Below, one piece after another: positions 1,201-24,451 of a DNA stretch of 26,051 bases. Where the stretch lies: positions 1 through 26,051 of IMG/VR virus record IMGVR_UViG_3300015186_000011, one strand, 5' to 3'. This stretch comes from a virus. Its lineage: Duplodnaviria; Heunggongvirae; Uroviricota; Caudoviricetes. Position numbers and translations under genes: made by a program. How positions within the stretch are numbered: the first letter of the stretch is position 1; each line of letters opens with the position of its first letter. The notes under the pieces are model-generated. The model was not told the origin of the DNA and did not search any database. It saw nothing but the letters and a program-made list of their open reading frames with translations.

Positions 1201-1268
1201 TATTACCTGAAAAACCACATATGGATAGACAACCCATAAATACGAACAGATATTACCTTTCAGGTGAT
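1201..1268 (-). promoter_or_regulatory. Conserved bipartite upstream element (copy A) ahead of the tailspike gene: TATTACC-N6-AACCACATATG, then TATTACCTTTCAGGT 50 bp away
   Basis: Plus-strand tattacc at 1201-1207 and 1251-1257, accacatatg at 1214-1223. The same arrangement recurs at 21198-21277 upstream of the portal operon. ACCTTTCAGGT is an ACCT-N3-AGGT inverted repeat. Confidence 0.5.
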
Positions 1269-1304
1269 TCGCAAAACGTGCTGGATAGCAAACAAATTAT
1301 TTGA

Positions 1305-1324
1305 TACTGTATAAACATACAGTT
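1305..1324. promoter_or_regulatory. LexA (SOS) box TACTGTATAAACATACAGTT
   Basis: Perfect CTGT-N8-ACAG with an AT-rich spacer (CTGT 1307-1310, ACAG 1319-1322), matching the E. coli LexA consensus TACTGTATATATATACAGTA. It lies about 20 bp upstream of the RBS of the 1344 gene and overlaps a TATAAA -10-like hexamer at 1310-1315. Confidence 0.65.
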
Positions 1325-1343
1325 ATTGCATGGAGAAGATAAG

Positions 1344-1601
1344 ATGCAGCAGTATCACTATCCACTGGAAGACGGATTTACCGAAAGGATTCACACGCCG
1401 GGAGGCGTCAGATCACTAGTGGAGGGATCGCACTTGATGAAATTACTCCGGGATCTCGATAAGGATGGATTTAATGTCGATGGCCCACTTGCCGAACTGA
1501 CTGCACTGATTAACTACGTCACCAGCTCACAGATGTCTATGCAGGATCTGCAAACACATCTCGACTATTGTGCCGAACAATTACGAAAGCAAACCAGATA
1601 A
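1344..1601 (+). CDS. Small (85 aa) standalone protein homologous to the C-terminal domain of the two antirepressors in this window; candidate SOS-inducible antirepressor
   Basis: ATG at 1344 with GGAG 8 nt upstream (the ORF track begins at a TTG at 1326). The product ...YPLEDGFTERIHTPGGVRSLVEGSHLMKLLRDLDKDGFNVDGPLAELTALINYV...DLQTHLDYC... aligns with the C-termini of the 1915..2607 and 3858..4802 products (YxPLKPGYRSLIHSPSGVLGLTENSLLMNLLN.LQEDGHDVSGAAAELTTMF...DIQTHAEY). Confidence 0.6.
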   Translation: MQQYHYPLEDGFTERIHTPGGVRSLVEGSHLMKLLRDLDKDGFNVDGPLAELTALINYVTSSQMSMQDLQTHLDYCAEQLRKQTR

Positions 1602-1741
1602 GGTTTGCAATTACCAAGCGGAGTGCTTATATTTACCTTTGCGGTAAATTTACATCGCACTCCTCTTGTGCCATAGTAATCGAGCACTGGCAAAATCCAG
1701 TGCCGGGATTGGTCTCCCGGATTACTACAGAGGCACATATG

Positions 1742-1760
1742 CCGCATAAGCGGTTTTTTT
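1742..1760 (+). terminator. Weak putative intrinsic terminator (short CCGC/GCGG stem followed by T7 run)
   Basis: ccgcataagcggttttttt. The stem is only 4 bp, so this is low confidence. Confidence 0.3.
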
Positions 1761-1914
1761 ATGTGTAAAGCGCACCTATTCTATGGTGGGCTGTGTGGGG
1801 GCACCGAAAGGTGCGCCGGGTTCCTTTGTAGCCGGTAAGACCAACTCTGCACAGTTCACCACCATCTGATTGGTCTCAGCGGTGGTGATTAACCTAACTA
1901 CAAAGGTGATCGCC

Positions 1915-2607
1915 ATGAATACCAAACCTTCCATCTTTTCCTTTGAGTCATCCTGCCAGATCCGTATGTTCATGATTGACGGAGAACCTTGGTTTGTCAC
2001 CAAAGATGTGTGCAATGCTTTGAATATTGATGTTACACAAGCGAGAAAACTTGATAAAAAAGGCTGGAACAAAAAGGGGCTGTATTCAATACAGACCCCT
2101 GGTGGAATACAAGAACTATCCATCGTTTCAGAATCAGGTCTCTACATCCTTATTCTGCGTTGCAAAGAGGCAATGACTGAGGGAACGAGAGCATTCAGAT
2201 TTCTTGAATGGGTTACAGGTGAGGTTCTTCCTCAGATCCGCCGCACCGGAAGTTACATTAAAAACTCGCTCCCGCAGGAAGAACGCATAAAGATGGTTGC
2301 CGACCAGGTAGCCAACGCCACGGCGTCAGCAGTGATGCAGGCGATGAAGATAGAGAACAAAACCTACAGTGCCCCACTGAAGCCCGGCTACCGCAGCCTG
2401 ATTCATTCGCCGTCTGGTGTTCTCGGCCTGACGGAGAACTCACTGCTGATGAATTTGCTGAACAAGTTACAGGAAGACGGGCACGATGTATCGGGCGCGG
2501 CAGCGGAGCTGACCACCATGTTCTGCTACATCGTCGGTGTGAGCAAATGCCTGCGTGATATCCAGACGCACGCGGAGTACATCAATGACAAGGCAGGGTT
2601 CTTCTGA
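1915..2607 (+). CDS. Phage antirepressor with BRO-N N-terminal domain and the shared antirepressor C-terminal domain
   Basis: ATG at 1915 preceded by AAGGTGA. N-terminus MNTKPSIFSFES..QIRMFMIDGEPWFVTKDVCNAL is a typical BRO-N signature. The C-terminal ~80 aa are near-identical to the C-terminus of the 3858..4802 product. Confidence 0.75.
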   Translation: MNTKPSIFSFESSCQIRMFMIDGEPWFVTKDVCNALNIDVTQARKLDKKGWNKKGLYSIQTPGGIQELSIVSESGLYILILRCKEAMTEGTRAFRFLEWVTGEVLPQIRRTGSYIKNSLPQEERIKMVADQVANATASAVMQAMKIENKTYSAPLKPGYRSLIHSPSGVLGLTENSLLMNLLNKLQEDGHDVSGAAAELTTMFCYIVGVSKCLRDIQTHAEYINDKAGFF

Positions 2608-2631
2608 CGGGCGGCGGCACATGGATGTGCC
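2373..2631. repeat. Left arm of a ~260-bp inverted repeat (partner 3834..4092), ~95% identical at DNA level
   Basis: Reverse complement of 3834-4092 matches 2373-2631 with only a few mismatches. The match spans the antirepressor C-terminal domain coding sequence and ~24 bp beyond the stop codons (cgggcggcggcaca[t/g]ggatgtgc). Confidence 0.7.
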
Positions 2632-3055: not shown

Positions 3056-3530
3056 TAACGAAGAAACTGAGTTCGAGGAAGTTGAGGAAGGGCTAAGTAA
3101 CGAGATCATTCAACACCCAGATGCCTTCACAAGAGTTCTTGATCGCCCTGAAATTCAGGAGATAGTTGTCGCTCACCATGCGTTTCAGGGTCCGCTTCCT
3201 CCCCCCTATCTGCTTCGCGGGTATCAGGATATTTTACCTGATGCCCCCGAACGCATCTTCCAGCTGACGGAGAAGGAGTTTGCTCACCGCCAGAAAATGG
3301 AGGAAAAGGCACTTGACGGGGCTATTAATAGAGATAAACGTGGGCAGTGGTTTGGCCTGAGTGCAACTATTTTTACAGTAGCTTGTGCAACATTATTAGG
3401 TTTAACAGGTCATGAAGTTCTAGCTGGCACAGTGATCGGTACAGTTGTTGCAGTGGCTGGTATTTTTGTTCTCAGACAAAAACCGAGCTTAAAGAAGAAC
3501 GCTGAAGATAAAACACCAGAAGAAGAGTAA
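2982..3530 (+). CDS. DUF2335-like predicted membrane protein (acidic N-terminal region, two C-terminal TM helices)
   Basis: Motif GPLPPPYLLRGYQDILPDAPERIFQLTEKEFAHRQKMEEKALDGAINRDKRGQWFG followed by hydrophobic segments matches my recollection of DUF2335. Start is ambiguous (ATG at 2982 or 3027); both overlap the upstream ORF in another frame. Confidence 0.55.
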   Translation: MQEENQKLKECPSTNMQKSIGQPSDNEETEFEEVEEGLSNEIIQHPDAFTRVLDRPEIQEIVVAHHAFQGPLPPPYLLRGYQDILPDAPERIFQLTEKEFAHRQKMEEKALDGAINRDKRGQWFGLSATIFTVACATLLGLTGHEVLAGTVIGTVVAVAGIFVLRQKPSLKKNAEDKTPEEE

Positions 3531-3553
3531 GCCCGCGACGCGGGCTTTTTTGT
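3531..3553 (+). terminator. Rho-independent terminator
   Basis: GCCCG-cgacg-CGGGC stem-loop followed by TTTTTTGT, immediately after the stop of the DUF2335-like gene. Confidence 0.7.
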
Positions 3554-3623
3554 GGGCGAAACAAAAGTCAGTGCTACACTCATTGACGCCACATTGAGGT
3601 GGTTTATAGATGGAAATTTCACA

Positions 3624-3785
3624 ATGAAAAAAGCATTTGCTGCACTGTTCGTTTTGTTGTCTCTGGTAGCTTCAACTCAGGCCTTTGCCGGTCGTTGTCA
3701 GCACGACAGCGACACTGCTGCTGACGGCTCCCGCTGCGGTGGGCGTTCTGCGGATTCCCGCCCGGGCGGCGGTGGCATTCGTTAA
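3624..3785 (+). CDS. Small putative secreted peptide (53 aa) with N-terminal signal peptide
   Basis: MKKAFAALFVLLSLVASTQAFA has signal-peptide character with an AxA cleavage motif. The mature part is Gly/Arg/Asp-rich with 2 Cys. RBS is weak and the gene is short, so confidence is low. Confidence 0.4.
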   Translation: MKKAFAALFVLLSLVASTQAFAGRCQHDSDTAADGSRCGGRSADSRPGGGGIR

Positions 3786-3833: not shown

Positions 3834-4092
3834 TGCACATCCCTGTGCCGCCGCCCGTCAGAAGAACCCTGCCTTGTCGTTGATGTACTCCGCGTGCGTC
3901 TGGATATCACGCAGGCATTTGCTCACACCAACGATGTAACAGAACATGGTGGTCAGCTCCGCCGCCGCGCCCGATACATCGTGCCCGTCTTCCTGTAACT
4001 GGTTCAGCAGATTCATCAGCAGTGAGTTCTCCGTCAGACCGAGAACACCAGACGGAGAATGAATCAGACTGCGGTAGCCGGGCTTCAATGGA
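3834..4092. repeat. Right arm of the ~260-bp inverted repeat (partner 2373..2631)
   Basis: See left arm; covers the 3' end of the minus-strand antirepressor gene plus ~24 bp downstream. Confidence 0.7.
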
Positions 4093-4802
4093 TAACCATA
4101 ACATTTTGTCTGTGTTTTAATTGCCTCACGAAGCGCATCTAACATCTTGACTGCCACTTCATCATTCTCTGATGCAGATCCAGCAGGGAGATACTCCCCT
4201 TCAAGCGGAACCCGAGCAACAAGAGACAACGCTTCGGCAAATTGATCTTCACCAATTTCTTTGTACGAACAGCCAAAATGAGATTTCAGTGACGACCACA
4301 TGGTGATCATCGCCTTAGCCTGTTTTTCTTTTGGCAGAGACTGACCGCGACTCATGACGAGTTGTTTAATGGCTTCCTGCTGTTCAGTTGTTATTTTACC
4401 CGGCAACGCCTTTTTAGCTTTGCGTGGGTTAACCACATGGCCTTTAGTCCAGTACTCGTAGAGCACATCGTCACACTCTTCCTGATACTGGATTACCTTG
4501 TCGCGGATTTCAGGGCGGACTTTGTTAGGGCTGATGGTTTGCAGCCAACCTGCAAGTTTGCGTAAAGCAAGACAGATAACCAGACGACGCTGAGTATCAC
4601 CGGGGAGCTGAATGGTCATTTCGACCATGCAGCTCTTAAAGCGTTGTTGCAACTTGCGGAACTGCGTTTTCCAGTCCAGCCCCATACCTTCAACGACTGG
4701 TTTCATTGGGGTGTATGGTTCGCCGTTATGATTGACAACATAAAGCTCTGCGCCGTGGAATGGCACGTTGATAGTAGATACCGCTGTTGCTATACTCGTC
4801 AT
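3858..4802 (-). CDS. ant: P22 Ant-like antirepressor (AntA / P22_AR_N-type N-terminal domain plus shared C-terminal domain)
   Basis: 314-aa ORF with AGGAA RBS. N-terminus ...GAELYVVNHNGEPYTPMKPVVEGMGLDWKTQFRKL is antirepressor N-domain-like. It sits immediately downstream of an Arc-like gene, as in P22 immI. Confidence 0.75.
   Translation of the reverse strand: MTSIATAVSTINVPFHGAELYVVNHNGEPYTPMKPVVEGMGLDWKTQFRKLQQRFKSCMVEMTIQLPGDTQRRLVICLALRKLAGWLQTISPNKVRPEIRDKVIQYQEECDDVLYEYWTKGHVVNPRKAKKALPGKITTEQQEAIKQLVMSRGQSLPKEKQAKAMITMWSSLKSHFGCSYKEIGEDQFAEALSLVARVPLEGEYLPAGSASENDEVAVKMLDALREAIKTQTKCYGYPLKPGYRSLIHSPSGVLGLTENSLLMNLLNQLQEDGHDVSGAAAELTTMFCYIVGVSKCLRDIQTHAEYINDKAGFF
4768..4796 (+). promoter_or_regulatory. 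Sigma70-like promoter (TTGATA-17 bp-TATACT) firing antisense across the ant translation start
   Basis: -35 TTGATA 4768-4773, 17-bp spacer, -10 TATACT 4791-4796. Predicted start near 4803, directly opposite the ant start codon (4800-4802) and RBS. Confidence 0.5.
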
Positions 4803-4877
4803 GTCGTTAATTCCTATACGTAGTTTTACGATACTGAAGCCCTGACGGTCTGGCCACCGTGGGGCTTCGCTGTTTTA
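4803..4877 (+). ncRNA. sar: Candidate sar-like antisense small RNA (~75 nt) complementary to the ant ribosome-binding region
   Basis: A promoter at 4768-4796 and an intrinsic terminator on the same strand (nested hairpin GAAGCCC..ACGGT-ctggcc-ACCGT..GGGCTTC at 4836-4868, then GCTGTTTTAT) bracket a ~75-nt transcript in the arc-ant intercistronic region. This mirrors the sar antisense RNA of P22 immI. Confidence 0.45.
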
Positions 4878-5042
4878 TGCCACGCTATTCTTCTCACCAG
4901 TGAGTCCATACACTTTCCTCAGCTGATAGATAATCTCTGTATTGAACTTTCGGCATTCTTTTTCGCCATTTCTTTCAATAGCTAACTTCACATCGTCCGG
5001 AAAACGAACTCGTCGTTGACACATCTCTTTTGCTTTTTGCAT
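4875..5042 (-). CDS. arc: Arc-like ribbon-helix-helix repressor (55 aa)
   Basis: ATG at 5040-5042 with a strong TAAGGAGA Shine-Dalgarno (the track ORF starts at an upstream GTG). Product MQKAKEMCQRRVRFPDDVKLAIERNGEKECRKFNTEIIYQLRKVYG resembles P22 Arc (..FNLRWPREVLDLVRKVAEENGRSVNSEIYQRV..). It lies upstream of ant and divergent from an Mnt-like gene. Confidence 0.65.
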   Translation of the reverse strand: MQKAKEMCQRRVRFPDDVKLAIERNGEKECRKFNTEIIYQLRKVYGLTGEKNSVA

Positions 5043-5162: not shown

Positions 5163-5594
5163 ATGAGCAGAGAAGATCCACAACTAAGGATCAGACTTCC
5201 CGTTGAAGTAAAAGAAAAAATAGAAATTTCTGCAAAAGCCAATAAGCGATCAATGAACGCTGAAATAGTACAACGTCTTGACACCAGCTTTCTGAAAGAT
5301 ATTCATGAAGATGACGTAATTTCTGCTTATGAAGCAAAAATTATTGCAAACAATGCACGACATGAAATATCAAATATTATTTTCAAAAGAACCTTTAATG
5401 AAATTAATAAGAAAATAACACTTGGACATACAAGTTTTTATATAAACCTTAATGACCTTGAACTGGAATCACTTGCAGATAATGATTACCAGATCATCTT
5501 TGAAAAAACATTTAATAAGCTCAATGAACTAGGTTACATCATCTGTGAAAACTCATGGGATGCAGATGGTTTTGGAATTGAAATACCTGAATAG
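5163..5594 (+). CDS. mnt: Mnt-like ribbon-helix-helix repressor with an AT-rich C-terminal extension (143 aa)
   Basis: ATG at 5163 (track ORF starts at a TTG at 5133). N-terminus MSREDPQLRIRLPVEVKEKIEISAKANKRSMNAEIVQRL closely resembles P22 Mnt (MARDDPHFNFRMPMEVREKLKFRAEANGRSMNSELLQIV). The C-terminal ~95 aa have no match I recognise and the DNA turns markedly AT-rich. Confidence 0.7.
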   Translation: MSREDPQLRIRLPVEVKEKIEISAKANKRSMNAEIVQRLDTSFLKDIHEDDVISAYEAKIIANNARHEISNIIFKRTFNEINKKITLGHTSFYINLNDLELESLADNDYQIIFEKTFNKLNELGYIICENSWDADGFGIEIPE

Positions 5595-21197: not shown

Positions 21198-21277
21198 TAT
21201 TACCAATTTAACCACATATGATTTATTTATCGTAGAAGGTTGACATTTGACGCGTGAATTATTACCTTTCAGGTAAC
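21198..21277 (-). promoter_or_regulatory. Conserved bipartite upstream element (copy B) ahead of the portal operon
   Basis: Plus-strand tattacc 21198-21204, aaccacatatg 21210-21220, tattacctttcaggtaa 21260-21276. Same elements and order as 1201-1268 upstream of the tailspike gene. Confidence 0.5.
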
Positions 21278-21598: not shown

Positions 21599-21675
21599 GT
21601 GGCATTAGCTCAGTTGGACAGAGCAACCGCCTTCTAAGCGGTTGGTCGCAGGTTCGAATCCTGCATGCCACGCCA
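21599..21675 (+). tRNA. tRNA-Arg, anticodon UCU (reads AGA), with encoded CCA
   Basis: Cloverleaf read by hand: acceptor GTGGCAT/ATGCCAC, D-arm GCTC..GAGC, anticodon stem ACCGC/GCGGT with loop CTTCTAA (anticodon TCT), T-arm GCAGG-TTCGAAT-CCTGC, discriminator G and CCA. Acceptor stem differs from host argU as I recall it, consistent with a phage-borne copy. Confidence 0.8.
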
Positions 21676-21718
21676 GAATCACGCCTAAGGACCGTGATAC
21701 CAGAAGTTCCAGGTGCTT

Positions 21719-21761
21719 GGCGGTGATGGTTTCCCTTGAAGGACTATCACCGCCCTTTTTA
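21719..21761 (+). terminator. Rho-independent terminator downstream of the tRNA
   Basis: GGCGGTGAT...ATCACCGCC stem (9 bp) followed by CTTTTT. Confidence 0.6.
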
Positions 21762-21838
21762 CAGCAGGACGCCATTGCGATGACTTCATGCTGTAAACCC
21801 GTACAGCCACGGAAGGCAGAACTCATTGCTTCCAGTTC

Positions 21839-21862
21839 GCCCGGTTCGCCGGGCATTTTTTT
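21839..21862 (+). terminator. Rho-independent terminator-like hairpin immediately upstream of the Gp49-like gene RBS
   Basis: GCCCGG-ttcg-CCGGGC followed by ATTTTTTT; the AAGGTGAG RBS of the next gene starts right after the U-tract. Confidence 0.6.
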
Positions 21863-23816: not shown

Positions 23817-24409
23817 TGATTACCATCCTGACGTTCTTTGAGTCGCTTCCTGGCTGCCGCTATGCGATCAGCAATTGTCACATTCACATTAACATCCAGG
23901 CGTTCTTTGAATGCGTTGACGTCGACGTGCTTACCAATCAGTTCGAGGTTCTTCACCTTGTCAGGCCATTTAATTTTTTTGAGGATTGTCTCTATCGAAT
24001 CCTCGTTCATGTTCATGATGGTCGATGACAGATCAAAGCCACTAAGCGTAGTGCGCCAGATTTTCGGCCACTCGCGGATTGGCTTAAGGCTCCCATCGTC
24101 GTTGAGGATATCAATCACGTCCATCTGGTCGATCTCCACCAGGCGCATGAGAACGTAATCGGCACTGACGCGCATTCGTTTGTTGCGCTCCTCCATCAAC
24201 TCGGCAATCCGTTTTTGAATGCGTTCATCGCGCATCATGACACTGGCTTTAACTGCCGCTGTATTTGGGGAGAATCCTGCGTTAATCGCTGCCTGAGTCT
24301 GGTTTTCAGGCGTTTTGATGTATGACTGGCAATAAGCCTCCTGCATTGCGGTTAGTGGCTTAAATTGCGTTGATTTGCGTTTATAGGTTTTAGGTTCAGC
24401 AGGCATCAT
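23813..24409 (-). CDS. Terminase small subunit (~198 aa, Terminase_2-like)
   Basis: Probable start is the ATG pair MMPAEP.. at 24409 with a GGTGG RBS (track ORF extends to 24487). AINAGFSPNTAAVKASVMMRDERIQKRIAEL resembles the small-terminase HTH region. Stop overlaps the large subunit start. Confidence 0.7.
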   Translation of the reverse strand: MMPAEPKTYKRKSTQFKPLTAMQEAYCQSYIKTPENQTQAAINAGFSPNTAAVKASVMMRDERIQKRIAELMEERNKRMRVSADYVLMRLVEIDQMDVIDILNDDGSLKPIREWPKIWRTTLSGFDLSSTIMNMNEDSIETILKKIKWPDKVKNLELIGKHVDVNAFKERLDVNVNVTIADRIAAARKRLKERQDGNQ

Positions 24410-24451
24410 AACCACCCTGGTAATTGTTACCGTTGTGGTAATAGTACCATG

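What the first reader, a model, noticed from the sequence alone, without database searches (positions are those of the whole stretch)
1305..1601. Perfect LexA box directly upstream of a standalone antirepressor-C-domain mini-gene
An SOS box matching the LexA consensus (CTGT-N8-ACAG, AT-rich spacer) sits about 20 bp upstream of the RBS of an 85-aa ORF. That ORF consists of essentially nothing but the C-terminal domain shared by the two full-length antirepressors in this window (BRO-N type at 1915-2607 and P22 Ant-like at 3858-4802). This fits the LexA-controlled antirepressor route to prophage induction known from coliphage 186 Tum and the Gifsy prophages, but here the candidate is a minimal single-domain protein and the phage also carries a P22-style immI region. 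It suggests SOS-triggered induction through a domain that could compete with, or mimic, the larger antirepressors.
Basis: partly seen in the sequence, partly recalled or inferred. Interest (0 to 1): 0.8.

Follow-up and report, generated by a model that had tools for sequence, protein, structure and literature searches.

The report
Known SOS-controlled phage antirepressor (Ant)

Summary
A LexA box (TACTGTATAAACATACAGTT, 1305-1324) lies 19 nt upstream of an 85-aa ORF (1344-1601). The ORF is 42% identical to the C-termini of the Bro-N (1915-2607) and P22_AR_N (3858-4802) antirepressors.

It is not new. The window is a phiV10/epsilon15-like (Uetakevirus) prophage. The ORF is 88% identical over its full length to SPC32H Ant (PDB 5D50 chain E), the published LexA-repressed antirepressor that disassembles the non-cleavable repressor Rep.

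- Synteny is the same: the gene is divergent from the tailspike and lies outside the immunity region.
- The box sits at the same place in all 18 orthologous loci examined.
- dN/dS is 0.04-0.07 against the Salmonella orthologues.
- All 35 phage records with the domain also encode a Rep homologue.

There is no support for the idea that the small protein competes with or mimics the larger antirepressors.

Extras:
- The larger antirepressors carry a diverged Ant domain and have their own controls: IsrK/C4 RNAs for one, Arc/Mnt/sar for the other.
- The domain has no Pfam or NCBIfam model.
- About 10% of complete E. coli genomes carry the gene, labelled "hypothetical protein" in every listed example.

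The parts
1253..1267 (.). Palindrome TTACCTTTCAGGTGA. It is a likely operator for the phage repressor Rep and lies upstream of the ant promoter, in the tailspike-ant intergenic region.
   Evidence: TTACC-N5-GGTAA with up to 1 mismatch occurs 6 times in the window against 0.39 expected, and 0 of 100 shuffles reached 6. The same palindrome is annotated 'repressor; lysogeny' in the epsilon15 record. It also occurs in the rep-cro intergenic regions of SPC32H and TL-2011b. Binding is inferred, not shown.
1282..1287 (+). Inferred -35 hexamer TGGATA of the ant promoter.
   Evidence: TGCTGGATAG is invariant in 9 aligned orthologous upstream regions, while the sequence between it and the box varies. 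The spacing to TACTGT is exactly 17 nt with no gaps. This is an inference; the transcription start was not mapped here.
1305..1324 (.). LexA (SOS) box TACTGTATAAACATACAGTT. Its left arm TACTGT (1305-1310) doubles as the inferred -10 hexamer.
   Evidence: Searches give the statistics. The box is at the same position in 18 of 18 orthologous loci: 12 have CTGT-N8-ACAG and 6 have ATGT-N8-ACAG. Its reverse complement matches the phage 186 p95 LexA operator at 19 of 20 positions. In the 186 record the annotated -10 is that same TACTGT.
1332..1335 (+). Ribosome-binding site GGAG, 8 nt before the ATG.
   Evidence: Read directly from the sequence. GCATGGAGA is invariant in the aligned orthologues.
1344..1601 (+). 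ant: an 85-aa antirepressor, orthologue of SPC32H Ant.
   Evidence: 88% identity to SPC32H_020 'ant anti-repressor protein'. PDB 5D50_E at E=4.1e-47. phrog_450 matched over its full length, E=9e-48. dN/dS is 0.04-0.07 against Salmonella orthologues. The protein is 100% identical in phage vB_EcoP_ZX5.
1684..1760 (+). IsrK-family sRNA with its own terminator (1741-1760). It is a neighbour and the first element of the next antirepressor module.
   Evidence: Rfam RF01394, 74.7 bits against a gathering score of 50. Terminator scan. isrK plus C4 follow ant in 9 of 16 related loci.
1779..1866 (+). C4-family antisense RNA (P1 immI type). Its loop CCUUUGUAG (1823-1831) is complementary to the RBS region of the next gene (1898-1906).
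   Evidence: Rfam RF01695, 78.6 bits against a gathering score of 45. The complementarity was read from the sequence.
1915..2607 (+). Bro-N antirepressor (230 aa) whose C-terminal ~80 aa are a diverged Ant domain.
   Evidence: Pfam Bro-N, 1.7e-13. 42% identity to Ant. 80% identity to vB_EcoP_ZX5 ORF4; overexpressing that protein cut lysogen titre about 1000-fold.
3858..4802 (-). P22_AR_N antirepressor (314 aa) with the same Ant-like C-terminal domain.
   Evidence: Pfam P22_AR_N, 2.9e-45, with no P22_AR_C. Residues 233-309 match 5D50_E at E=7.5e-14. The N-terminal 230 aa occur in 387 phage records, whereas the C-domain occurs in only 35.
4804..4871 (+). sar-family antisense RNA, between the arc-like gene and ant, antisense to that operon.
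   Evidence: Rfam RF00262, 44.8 bits against a gathering score of 43.
4875..5042 (-). Arc-like small repressor, first gene of the arc-ant operon.
   Evidence: PHROG 228 'Arc-like repressor', 3.4e-5. The TL-2011b orthologue is annotated 'Arc-like repressor'.
5163..5594 (+). Divergent Arc-domain (ribbon-helix-helix) protein in the position of P22 Mnt.
   Evidence: Pfam Arc, 1.1e-14. phrog_1388.

Best explanation
The segment 1282-1601 is the SOS-input module of a phiV10/epsilon15-like (Uetakevirus) prophage. It consists of a sigma-70 promoter overlapped by a LexA operator, followed by ant.

Proposed sequence of events:
1. In the lysogen, host LexA sits on the box at 1305-1324. The box covers the -10 hexamer and the likely transcription start, so ant stays silent.
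2. DNA damage activates RecA, LexA cleaves itself, and ant is transcribed.
3. The 85-aa Ant protein binds the phage repressor Rep. Rep is an HTH protein with no S24 self-cleavage domain.
4. Ant breaks the DNA-binding Rep tetramer into dimers that bind DNA only weakly.
5. Lytic genes are derepressed.

What is shown and what is inferred:
- Shown here: the box, the ORF, its orthology, the conserved box position, purifying selection, and co-occurrence with Rep.
- Shown elsewhere, for SPC32H: LexA control, Ant-Rep binding, and tetramer disassembly.
- Inferred for this prophage: that the same events occur. Its own rep gene lies outside the window.
For: Orthology.
- 88% identity to SPC32H Ant over residues 2-84, annotated 'ant anti-repressor protein'.
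- PDB 5D50 chain E 'Anti-repressor protein', E=4.1e-47.

Synteny. The gene is divergent from the tailspike and far from the immunity region in SPC32H, phiV10, epsilon15, Tyrion, BUCT554 and Klebsiella phages.

LexA box.
- A unique near-consensus 20-mer.
- Present at the same place, 18-23 nt before the ATG, in 18 of 18 orthologous loci from 11 or more genera or phage lineages. The spacer bases and upstream flank vary.
- The epsilon15 box is identical to the phage 186 p95 LexA operator, and the window box is its reverse complement at 19 of 20 positions. In the 186 record the annotated -10 is TACTGT.

Coding constraint. dN/dS is 0.04-0.07 against Salmonella orthologues, with dS saturated.

Target.
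- All 35 phage records with an Ant homologue also have a Rep homologue, out of 50,697 records.
- In the nearest complete phage, TL-2011b (97% identity over 90% of the window), gp10 matches 5D50 chain A 'Repressor' at E=3e-41.
- That protein has HTH_3 and no Peptidase_S24 domain.

Published mechanism, through citing papers.
- LexA cleavage leads to Ant synthesis and inhibition of the repressor.
- Rep's C-terminal CAD domain mediates tetramerisation and Ant binding.
Against: - The rep gene is not in the window: tblastn found nothing. The cognate target of this particular copy is therefore unverified.
- E. coli-type Rep is only 42% identical to SPC32H Rep while Ant is 88% identical. Binding of this Ant to its own Rep is an extrapolation.
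- The two primary papers could not be read here. Details of LexA control in SPC32H rest on my memory of the 2013 abstract plus secondary citations.
- The promoter hexamers are inferred, and the consensus scan did not call them.
- Six orthologous loci have ATGT instead of CTGT in one half-site.
Confidence: 0.9

Rival explanations
1. The LexA box gates a longer SOS operon running ant-isrK-C4-BroN antirepressor. On this view the downstream Bro-N::Ant-domain protein, or IsrK acting in trans, is the main inducer and the 85-aa protein is accessory.
For: - No canonical terminator lies between the ant stop (1601) and isrK (1684). The first one is isrK's own, at 1741-1760.
- isrK plus C4 follow ant on the same strand in 9 of 16 related loci, often about 85 nt after the stop codon.
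- In Gifsy-1, read-through past the isrK terminator feeds an antirepressor gene, and short IsrK activates its translation in trans.
- The ZX5 homologue of the Bro-N protein behaves as an antirepressor when overexpressed.
Against: - SPC32H, epsilon15 and BUCT554 have ant followed directly by a terminator or by convergent structural genes, with no isrK/C4/Bro-N module. Ant is nevertheless the published SOS antirepressor there.
- isrK has its own promoter-like sites at 1605-1633 and 1649-1677.
- C4 is predicted to block the Bro-N RBS.
- In phiV10 the Bro-N gene's Ant domain is frameshifted, while the small ant is intact.
Confidence: 0.08
2. The small protein acts mainly on the larger antirepressors: it competes with them for the repressor, or forms mixed oligomers with their homologous C-terminal domains. 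It would then be a modulator rather than the primary inducer.
For: - All three proteins share one domain with 21 invariant positions.
- SPC32H Ant is oligomeric, a tetramer, so mixed oligomers are conceivable.
Against: - No data point to this.
- The small gene is the ancestral, universal member and is present in all 35 records. The fused forms are present in only some lineages.
- The paralogues are only 42% identical.
- In SPC32H, Ant acts on Rep without any large partner.
Confidence: 0.03
3. The box is a chance palindrome and the ORF is a decayed fragment of an antirepressor gene that is not expressed.
For: - The ORF is short and has no Pfam or NCBIfam hit.
- It is annotated 'hypothetical protein' in all listed E. 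coli genome hits.
Against: - 0 of 100 shuffles give such a 20-mer.
- The box is conserved in 18 of 18 loci.
- dN/dS is 0.04-0.07.
- The ORF matches a crystallised protein over its full length.
- It is present at 95-99% identity in 529 of 5426 complete E. coli genomes.
Confidence: 0.01

Closest known systems
SPC32H Ant / Rep / LexA switch of epsilon15-like Salmonella phages (Kim & Ryu 2013, J Virol 87:11775; Kim et al. 2016, PNAS 113:E2480; PDB 5D50, 5D4Z)
   Same: - The protein is the same: 88% identity, 85 aa against 86 aa.
- The gene position is the same, divergent from the tailspike.
- The LexA box has the same distance from the start codon.
- The same kind of repressor (HTH, no S24 domain) is present in all relatives.
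   Different: - The host lineage is E. coli.
- The box spacer is the reverse complement of the SPC32H spacer (ATAAACAT against ATGTTTAT).
- The partner Rep of E. coli relatives is only about 42% identical to SPC32H Rep.
- Here ant is followed by two extra antirepressor modules that SPC32H lacks.
Coliphage 186 Tum (p95 SOS operon)
   Same: - A LexA box overlaps the promoter, with TACTGT serving as the -10.
- The operator sequence is nearly identical.
- The antirepressor inactivates a non-cleavable repressor, and its gene lies outside the immunity region.
   Different: There is no sequence homology (BLASTP E=0.06). Tum is 146 aa with a DinI-like half; Ant is 85 aa with a different fold family.
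Gifsy GfoA/GftA/GfhA and N15 AntC (LexA-controlled small antirepressors; Lemire et al. 2011, PMC3121763)
   Same: They are small proteins under direct LexA control, encoded away from the immunity region. They bind and release a non-cleavable repressor, and cross-talk between heteroimmune repressors has been documented.
   Different: In Gifsy the antirepressor is the second gene of a dinI-led operon; there is no dinI here. No Gifsy record appeared among the tblastn hits of Ant. From my memory of the 2013 abstract, SPC32H Ant was described as structurally distinct from these.
P22 immI (mnt / arc-ant / sar) and P1 immI (c4-icd-ant); Gifsy-1 isrK-orf45-anrP
   Same: The two neighbouring large antirepressor genes are wired in these ways. 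One has Arc-like and Arc-domain regulators plus a sar RNA hit. The other has IsrK plus C4 RNAs, with a C4 loop complementary to the RBS.
   Different: These controls do not apply to the 85-aa gene. Both large proteins have swapped their C-terminal domain for the Ant-type domain: there is no P22_AR_C.
vB_EcoP_ZX5 ORF4 'anti-repressor' (Li et al. 2022, PMC9782041)
   Same: It is an E. coli Uetakevirus whose small Ant is 100% identical and which has a LexA box. Its ORF4 is 80% identical to the window's Bro-N protein, and the Ant-like C-terminal half is essentially identical.
   Different: That study tested only the Bro-N protein. It did not mention the small ant gene or SPC32H, and in the record the small gene is 'hypothetical protein'.

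Membership tests
SPC32H-type Ant (Uetakevirus LexA-controlled antirepressor; PDB 5D50_E; phrog_450) | Full-length sequence homology to SPC32H Ant | tested here: met
   88% identity over residues 2-84. 5D50_E at E=4.1e-47. phrog_450 at E=9e-48, covering 84 of 88 profile positions.
SPC32H-type Ant (Uetakevirus LexA-controlled antirepressor; PDB 5D50_E; phrog_450) | Single-domain protein of about 86 aa | tested here: met
   85 aa. Nearly all of the 136 homologous clusters are 85-86 aa.
SPC32H-type Ant (Uetakevirus LexA-controlled antirepressor; PDB 5D50_E; phrog_450) | Gene outside the immunity region, divergent from the tailspike gene | tested here: met
   In the window the tailspike N-terminus ends at 1147(-) and ant starts at 1344(+). 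The layout is the same in SPC32H, phiV10, epsilon15, Tyrion, BUCT554 and Klebsiella phages.
SPC32H-type Ant (Uetakevirus LexA-controlled antirepressor; PDB 5D50_E; phrog_450) | LexA operator overlapping the ant promoter | tested here: met
   A box is present and positionally conserved in 18 of 18 loci. This holds at sequence level only; LexA binding cannot be tested with these tools.
SPC32H-type Ant (Uetakevirus LexA-controlled antirepressor; PDB 5D50_E; phrog_450) | Cognate Rep-type repressor (HTH, no self-cleavage domain) in the same phage | tested here: inconclusive
   rep is not inside the window. All 35 phage records with Ant have a Rep homologue. TL-2011b gp10 matches 5D50_A at 3e-41 and has no S24 domain.
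SPC32H-type Ant (Uetakevirus LexA-controlled antirepressor; PDB 5D50_E; phrog_450) | Ant binds Rep and dissociates its tetramer | not testable with these tools
   Known for SPC32H only, through citing papers.
Phage 186 Tum family | Sequence homology to Tum, with a DinI-like C-terminal half | tested here: not met
   BLASTP gave 16.5 bits, E=0.06. There is no DinI Pfam hit.
Phage 186 Tum family | LexA box overlapping the -10 of the promoter | tested here: met
   The same TACTGT arm is present, and the operator is nearly identical to p95. This is a functional analogy only.
Gifsy GfoA/GftA-type antirepressors | Homology to GfoA/GftA/FsoA | tested here: inconclusive
   tblastn of Ant against 50,697 phage records at E<=1e-5 returned only Uetakevirus-type records. 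Whether the Gifsy records are in that collection was not checked, and no direct pairwise test was run.
Gifsy GfoA/GftA-type antirepressors | LexA-controlled operon led by a dinI homologue | tested here: not met
   ant is the first gene after the box and no dinI-like ORF is present.
P22 Ant (immI) | P22_AR_N plus P22_AR_C domains | tested here: not met
   The 85-aa ORF has neither domain. The 314-aa neighbour has P22_AR_N only.
P22 Ant (immI) | Control by Mnt/Arc repressors and sar antisense RNA | tested here: not met
   These elements flank the 314-aa gene at 3858-4802, not the 85-aa gene.

The most novel reading that the evidence does not exclude
The Ant fold may be a portable 'warhead' that targets Rep. 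In this locus three proteins carry it, each under a different input:
- LexA/SOS controls the 85-aa Ant.
- IsrK and C4 RNAs control the Bro-N fusion.
- Arc, Mnt and sar control the P22_AR_N fusion.

All three would converge on one Rep-type repressor, or on heteroimmune Rep alleles, forming a multi-input induction and anti-immunity hub. LexA-driven read-through from ant into isrK might additionally couple the SOS response to the second antirepressor.

The evidence is comparative only:
- The domain, standalone or fused, occurs in 35 of 50,697 phage records, and all 35 encode Rep.
- The N-terminal part of the P22_AR_N fusion occurs in 387 records, including Stx phages that lack the domain.
- Elsewhere the domain is fused to AntA, Bro-N, pRha and ORF6N N-termini.
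- The ZX5 Bro-N fusion reduces lysogeny when overexpressed.
Probability: 0.35. Interest if true: 0.5.

Novelty: already known. Interest (0 to 1): 0.25.

Why it matters
For the finding as stated, it matters little. It rediscovers a switch that is already characterised genetically and structurally.

The practical value is in annotation. The gene and its LexA box are present in 529 of 5426 complete E. coli genomes, and every listed example is labelled 'hypothetical protein'. PHROG 450 is labelled 'unknown function'. Neither Pfam nor NCBIfam has a model for it, although a crystal structure exists. Transferring the Ant annotation would identify the SOS induction route of a common family of O-antigen-modifying E. 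coli and Salmonella prophages.

The side observation is a testable hypothesis about how modular antirepressors are built. The same domain appears to be the variable, repressor-matched C-terminal module of larger antirepressors that sit under RNA-based or Arc/Mnt control. It would also explain how one prophage can integrate several signals.

Tried and rejected
- Primary papers. Kim & Ryu 2013 (DOI and PMC3807360) and Kim et al. 2016 (PMC4983836) are not held. I used citing papers instead, together with my memory of the abstracts.
- Family libraries. Pfam and NCBIfam scans of the 85-aa ORF found no family. DUF724 scored 17.6 bits against a cut-off of 38.4, which is noise.
- Rep in the window. 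tblastn with SPC32H and TL-2011b Rep found nothing. The window ends about 1.5 kb past the terminase small-subunit gene, whereas rep lies about 6 kb past it in TL-2011b.
- Homology to 186 Tum. None was found.
- Other LexA boxes.
  - The perfect CTGT-N8-ACAG at 21791-21806 has the GC-rich spacer AAACCCGT and lies inside ORF 21605-21856(-), so I judged it chance.
  - One-mismatch boxes are no commoner than in shuffles: 8 against 9.1 expected.
  - Neither large antirepressor gene has a box.
- Promoter scan. The consensus scan did not call a promoter at the box. The promoter assignment rests on conservation and on the 186 precedent. An alternative pairing, TTGATA at 1301-1306 with TATTGC at 1324-1329, was rejected because the second hexamer is GATTGC in most orthologues.
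- Source genome. The genome-contig scan returned only 8 loci. No complete E. coli genome matches the 5-kb region at 99% or better, so the source genome and its own rep gene were not identified.
- Structure prediction was not run. A solved structure at 88% identity makes it unnecessary.
Full report
**1. What is in the sequence**

The 20-mer TACTGTATAAACATACAGTT occupies 1305-1324, with CTGT at 1307-1310 and ACAG at 1319-1322.

- It is the only site in 26 kb within three mismatches of the LexA consensus TACTGTATATATATACAGTA. None of 100 dinucleotide-preserving shuffles produced one.
- The bare CTGT-N8-ACAG pattern occurs twice against 0.28 expected.
- The second copy, at 21791, has a GC-rich spacer and lies inside an ORF, so I treat it as chance.
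- One-mismatch versions are no commoner than in shuffles.

GGAG at 1332-1335 and ATG at 1344 open an 85-aa ORF that ends at 1601. The box therefore ends 7 nt before the RBS and 19 nt before the start codon.

The ORF is 42% identical to the C-termini of two larger proteins:

| Protein | Coordinates | Alignment to the ORF | E-value |
|---|---|---|---|
| Bro-N protein | 1915-2607(+) | 74 aa | 6e-20 |
| P22_AR_N protein | 3858-4802(-) | 76 aa | 4e-16 |

Pfam confirms both N-terminal domains. The two large proteins differ at a single residue over their last ~78 aa. Their 3' ends form a 292-nt inverted repeat.

**2. What it is**

The window is a phiV10/epsilon15-like podovirus prophage of the genus Uetakevirus. 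Phage TL-2011b matches 90% of the window at 97% identity, and the left end of the window is the conserved tailspike N-terminus.

- A tblastn search of the 85-aa protein against 50,697 phage records found 35 records, all of this group.
- Among them, the SPC32H gene SPC32H_020 is annotated 'ant: anti-repressor protein' and is 88% identical.
- The protein matches PDB 5D50 chain E, 'Anti-repressor protein' (86 aa), at E=4e-47 over its full length. Chain A of that entry is the repressor.
- PHROG 450, an 88-position profile labelled 'unknown function', is matched end to end.
- Pfam and NCBIfam have no model for it.

**3. Published mechanism**

I could not open the two primary papers, but other papers summarise them.

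[quoted passage not shown] This is attributed to Kim and Ryu 2013 among others.
- SPC32H Rep binds DNA as a tetramer. [quoted passage not shown]
- Rep's C-terminal domain mediates both tetramerisation and Ant binding.

From my own memory of the 2013 abstract: Rep is not cleaved during the SOS response. Ant is repressed by LexA at a site overlapping its promoter. A single-base change in that site makes the sibling phage SPC32N constitutively lytic. Ant homologues were noted in other temperate podoviruses.

**4. Conservation of the arrangement**

I compared the region upstream of ant in 18 orthologous loci:

- phages SPC32H, epsilon15, phiV10, ZX5, Tyrion, BUCT554 and three Klebsiella phages;
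- prophages in Citrobacter (two), Pseudocitrobacter, Scandinavium, Kluyvera, Superficieibacter, Buttiauxella and K. pneumoniae.

Findings:

- All 18 have a LexA-type box 18-23 nt before the ATG. Twelve have CTGT-N8-ACAG, and six have ATGT-N8-ACAG with a perfect AT spacer.
- The spacer varies (ATAAACAT, ATGTTTAT, ACATAAAT, GTATTTAT and others), and so does the flank upstream of the box. The half-sites are fixed. This is the pattern expected of a constrained operator.
- In a nine-locus alignment, TGCTGGATAG is invariant exactly 17 nt upstream of TACTGT.
- I therefore infer -35 = TGGATA (1282-1287) and -10 = TACTGT (1305-1310). The latter is the left arm of the box.
- The phage 186 record gives the same design for p95. 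Its annotated -10 is TACTGT, inside the LexA site TACTGTATGTTTATACAGTA.
- That 20-mer is identical to the epsilon15 ant box. It matches the reverse complement of the window box at 19 of 20 positions.

The ORF is under strong purifying selection. dN/dS is 0.04-0.07 against Salmonella orthologues at about 78% nucleotide identity. It is not a decayed fragment.

**5. The target**

rep is not in the window. Even so:

- Every one of the 35 phage records with Ant also has a homologue of SPC32H Rep. Only one further record has Rep without Ant.
- In TL-2011b the homologue is gp10. It is 42% identical to SPC32H Rep and matches 5D50 chain A at 3e-41.
- gp10 has an HTH_3 domain but no S24 peptidase domain. 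It would therefore need an antirepressor for SOS induction.
- Ant is far better conserved than Rep between the Salmonella and E. coli lineages: 88% against 42%.
- One possible reason is that a gene sitting far from the immunity region has to work with whichever rep allele recombination brings in. This is inference. It echoes the cross-reactivity described for the Gifsy antirepressors.

**6. Relation to other LexA-controlled antirepressors**

- The analogy with 186 Tum is functional and even extends to the operator sequence. The proteins are unrelated (E=0.06), and Ant has no DinI-like part.
- The Gifsy antirepressors sit second in a dinI-led operon, and there is no dinI here.
The family is SPC32H Ant.

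**7. The neighbours**

Rfam finds three RNAs at or above gathering score: IsrK (1684-1760), C4 (1779-1866) and sar (4804-4871).

IsrK and C4:
- They lie between ant and the Bro-N gene.
- The C4 loop CCUUUGUAG (1823-1831) is the exact complement of CUACAAAGG (1898-1906), which covers the Bro-N RBS. This is the P1 immI logic.
- The isrK-plus-antirepressor layout matches the Gifsy-1 isrK-orf45-anrP locus.
- The same RNA pair follows ant in 9 of 16 related loci.

sar and the Arc-type regulators:
- sar lies between the Arc-like ORF (4875-5042, minus strand) and the 314-aa gene.
- An Arc-domain ORF is divergent at 5163-5594.
- The 314-aa protein lacks P22_AR_C. Its only PDB match is 5D50_E, for residues 233-309.

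Each of the three Ant-domain genes thus has its own control system, and only the small one has a LexA box.

**8. Distribution of the domain**

- A profile search of 1.84 billion representative proteins found only 60 clusters. They are either standalone proteins of about 85-95 aa or C-terminal fusions.
- The fusion partners are AntA, Bro-N, Phage_pRha and ORF6N, plus P22_AR_N in this window.
- Among phage records, the fused-type domain is confined to the same 35 Rep-bearing records.
- The N-terminal 230 aa of the 314-aa protein occur in 387 records, including many Stx phages.
- This fits a modular design in which the C-terminal Ant domain is the part matched to the Rep-type repressor.
- The caveat is that all carriers belong to one phage lineage, so co-occurrence and ancestry are confounded.

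One experiment bears on this. In E. coli phage vB_EcoP_ZX5, overexpression of ORF4 lowered the lysogen titre from about 10^9 to 10^6. It also reduced repressor transcription by 75%. ORF4 is 80% identical to the window's Bro-N protein overall and essentially identical in the Ant-like half. That paper does not mention SPC32H. It left the small ant gene, which is 100% identical to the window's, as 'hypothetical protein', even though a LexA box precedes it.

**9. Verdict**

- The feature is the canonical, already characterised SOS switch of epsilon15-like phages, not a new minimal variant.
- Nothing indicates competition with, or mimicry of, the larger antirepressors.
- Novelty: already known. Interest is low.
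- Two modest points remain: an annotation gap, and a testable hypothesis about modular, multi-input antirepression. On the gap, 529 of 5426 complete E. coli genomes carry the box plus gene, labelled 'hypothetical protein' in all listed examples.

Noticed in passing
window 1253-1267, 1633-1647, 2693-2707, 21262-21276, 24409-24423, 24427-24441: The palindrome TTACC-N5-GGTAA occurs 6 times (allowing up to 1 mismatch) against 0.39 expected. It is annotated as a repressor-binding site in the epsilon15 record. It also lies in the rep-cro intergenic regions of SPC32H and TL-2011b. It is probably the Rep operator, scattered over several promoters as the C1 operators are in P1. One copy sits just upstream of the ant promoter. 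Another overlaps the promoter-like sites in front of isrK.
   Followed up: partly
window 1684-1866 and 1898-1906: IsrK and C4 RNA genes (Rfam) lie between ant and the Bro-N antirepressor gene. The C4 loop CCUUUGUAG (1823-1831) is exactly complementary to CUACAAAGG, which covers the Bro-N RBS. No canonical terminator separates ant from isrK, so SOS-driven transcripts may read into this module. The isrK plus C4 pair follows ant in 9 of 16 related loci.
   Followed up: partly
window 2339-2630 and 3835-4126: A 292-nt inverted repeat, 91% complementary, is formed by the 3' ends of the two convergent large antirepressor genes. It brackets a 1.2-kb cargo segment holding a phrog_10654 ORF, a DUF2335 membrane protein and a small signal-peptide ORF at 3624-3785. 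In related E. coli prophages the cargo between these genes differs, for example a YafO toxin or DUF4760. The repeats may therefore act as anchors for inversion or cassette exchange.
   Followed up: no
window 4804-4871: A sar antisense RNA hit lies just above the Rfam gathering score (44.8 against 43 bits). It sits between the Arc-like ORF and the P22_AR_N antirepressor gene, on the opposite strand.
   Followed up: no
window 21791-21806: A second perfect CTGT-N8-ACAG (CTGTAAACCCGTACAG) has a GC-rich spacer and lies inside ORF 21605-21856(-), near the tRNA gene. It is probably chance.
   Followed up: partly
window 21599-21675: tRNA-Arg (anticodon TCT) lies among the head genes, as in SPC32H.
   Followed up: no
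L012 (phiV10) 3071-3750: In phiV10 the Ant-like C-terminal domain of the Bro-N gene is split into two pieces, PhiV10p23 plus PhiV10p22. This is an apparent frameshift. The small LexA-controlled ant is intact.
   Followed up: no
window 1344-1601 compared with rep of relatives (L002 33739-34335, L003 5306-5890): Ant is 88% identical between the E. coli and Salmonella lineages, whereas their Rep repressors are only about 42% identical. This suggests that Ant tolerates, or cross-reacts with, divergent Rep alleles.
   Followed up: partly
E. coli complete genomes and family libraries: The box-plus-ant segment is present in 529 of 5426 complete E. coli genomes, and every listed hit is annotated 'hypothetical protein'. 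phrog_450 is labelled 'unknown function'. Neither Pfam nor NCBIfam has a model, although a crystal structure exists.
   Followed up: yes
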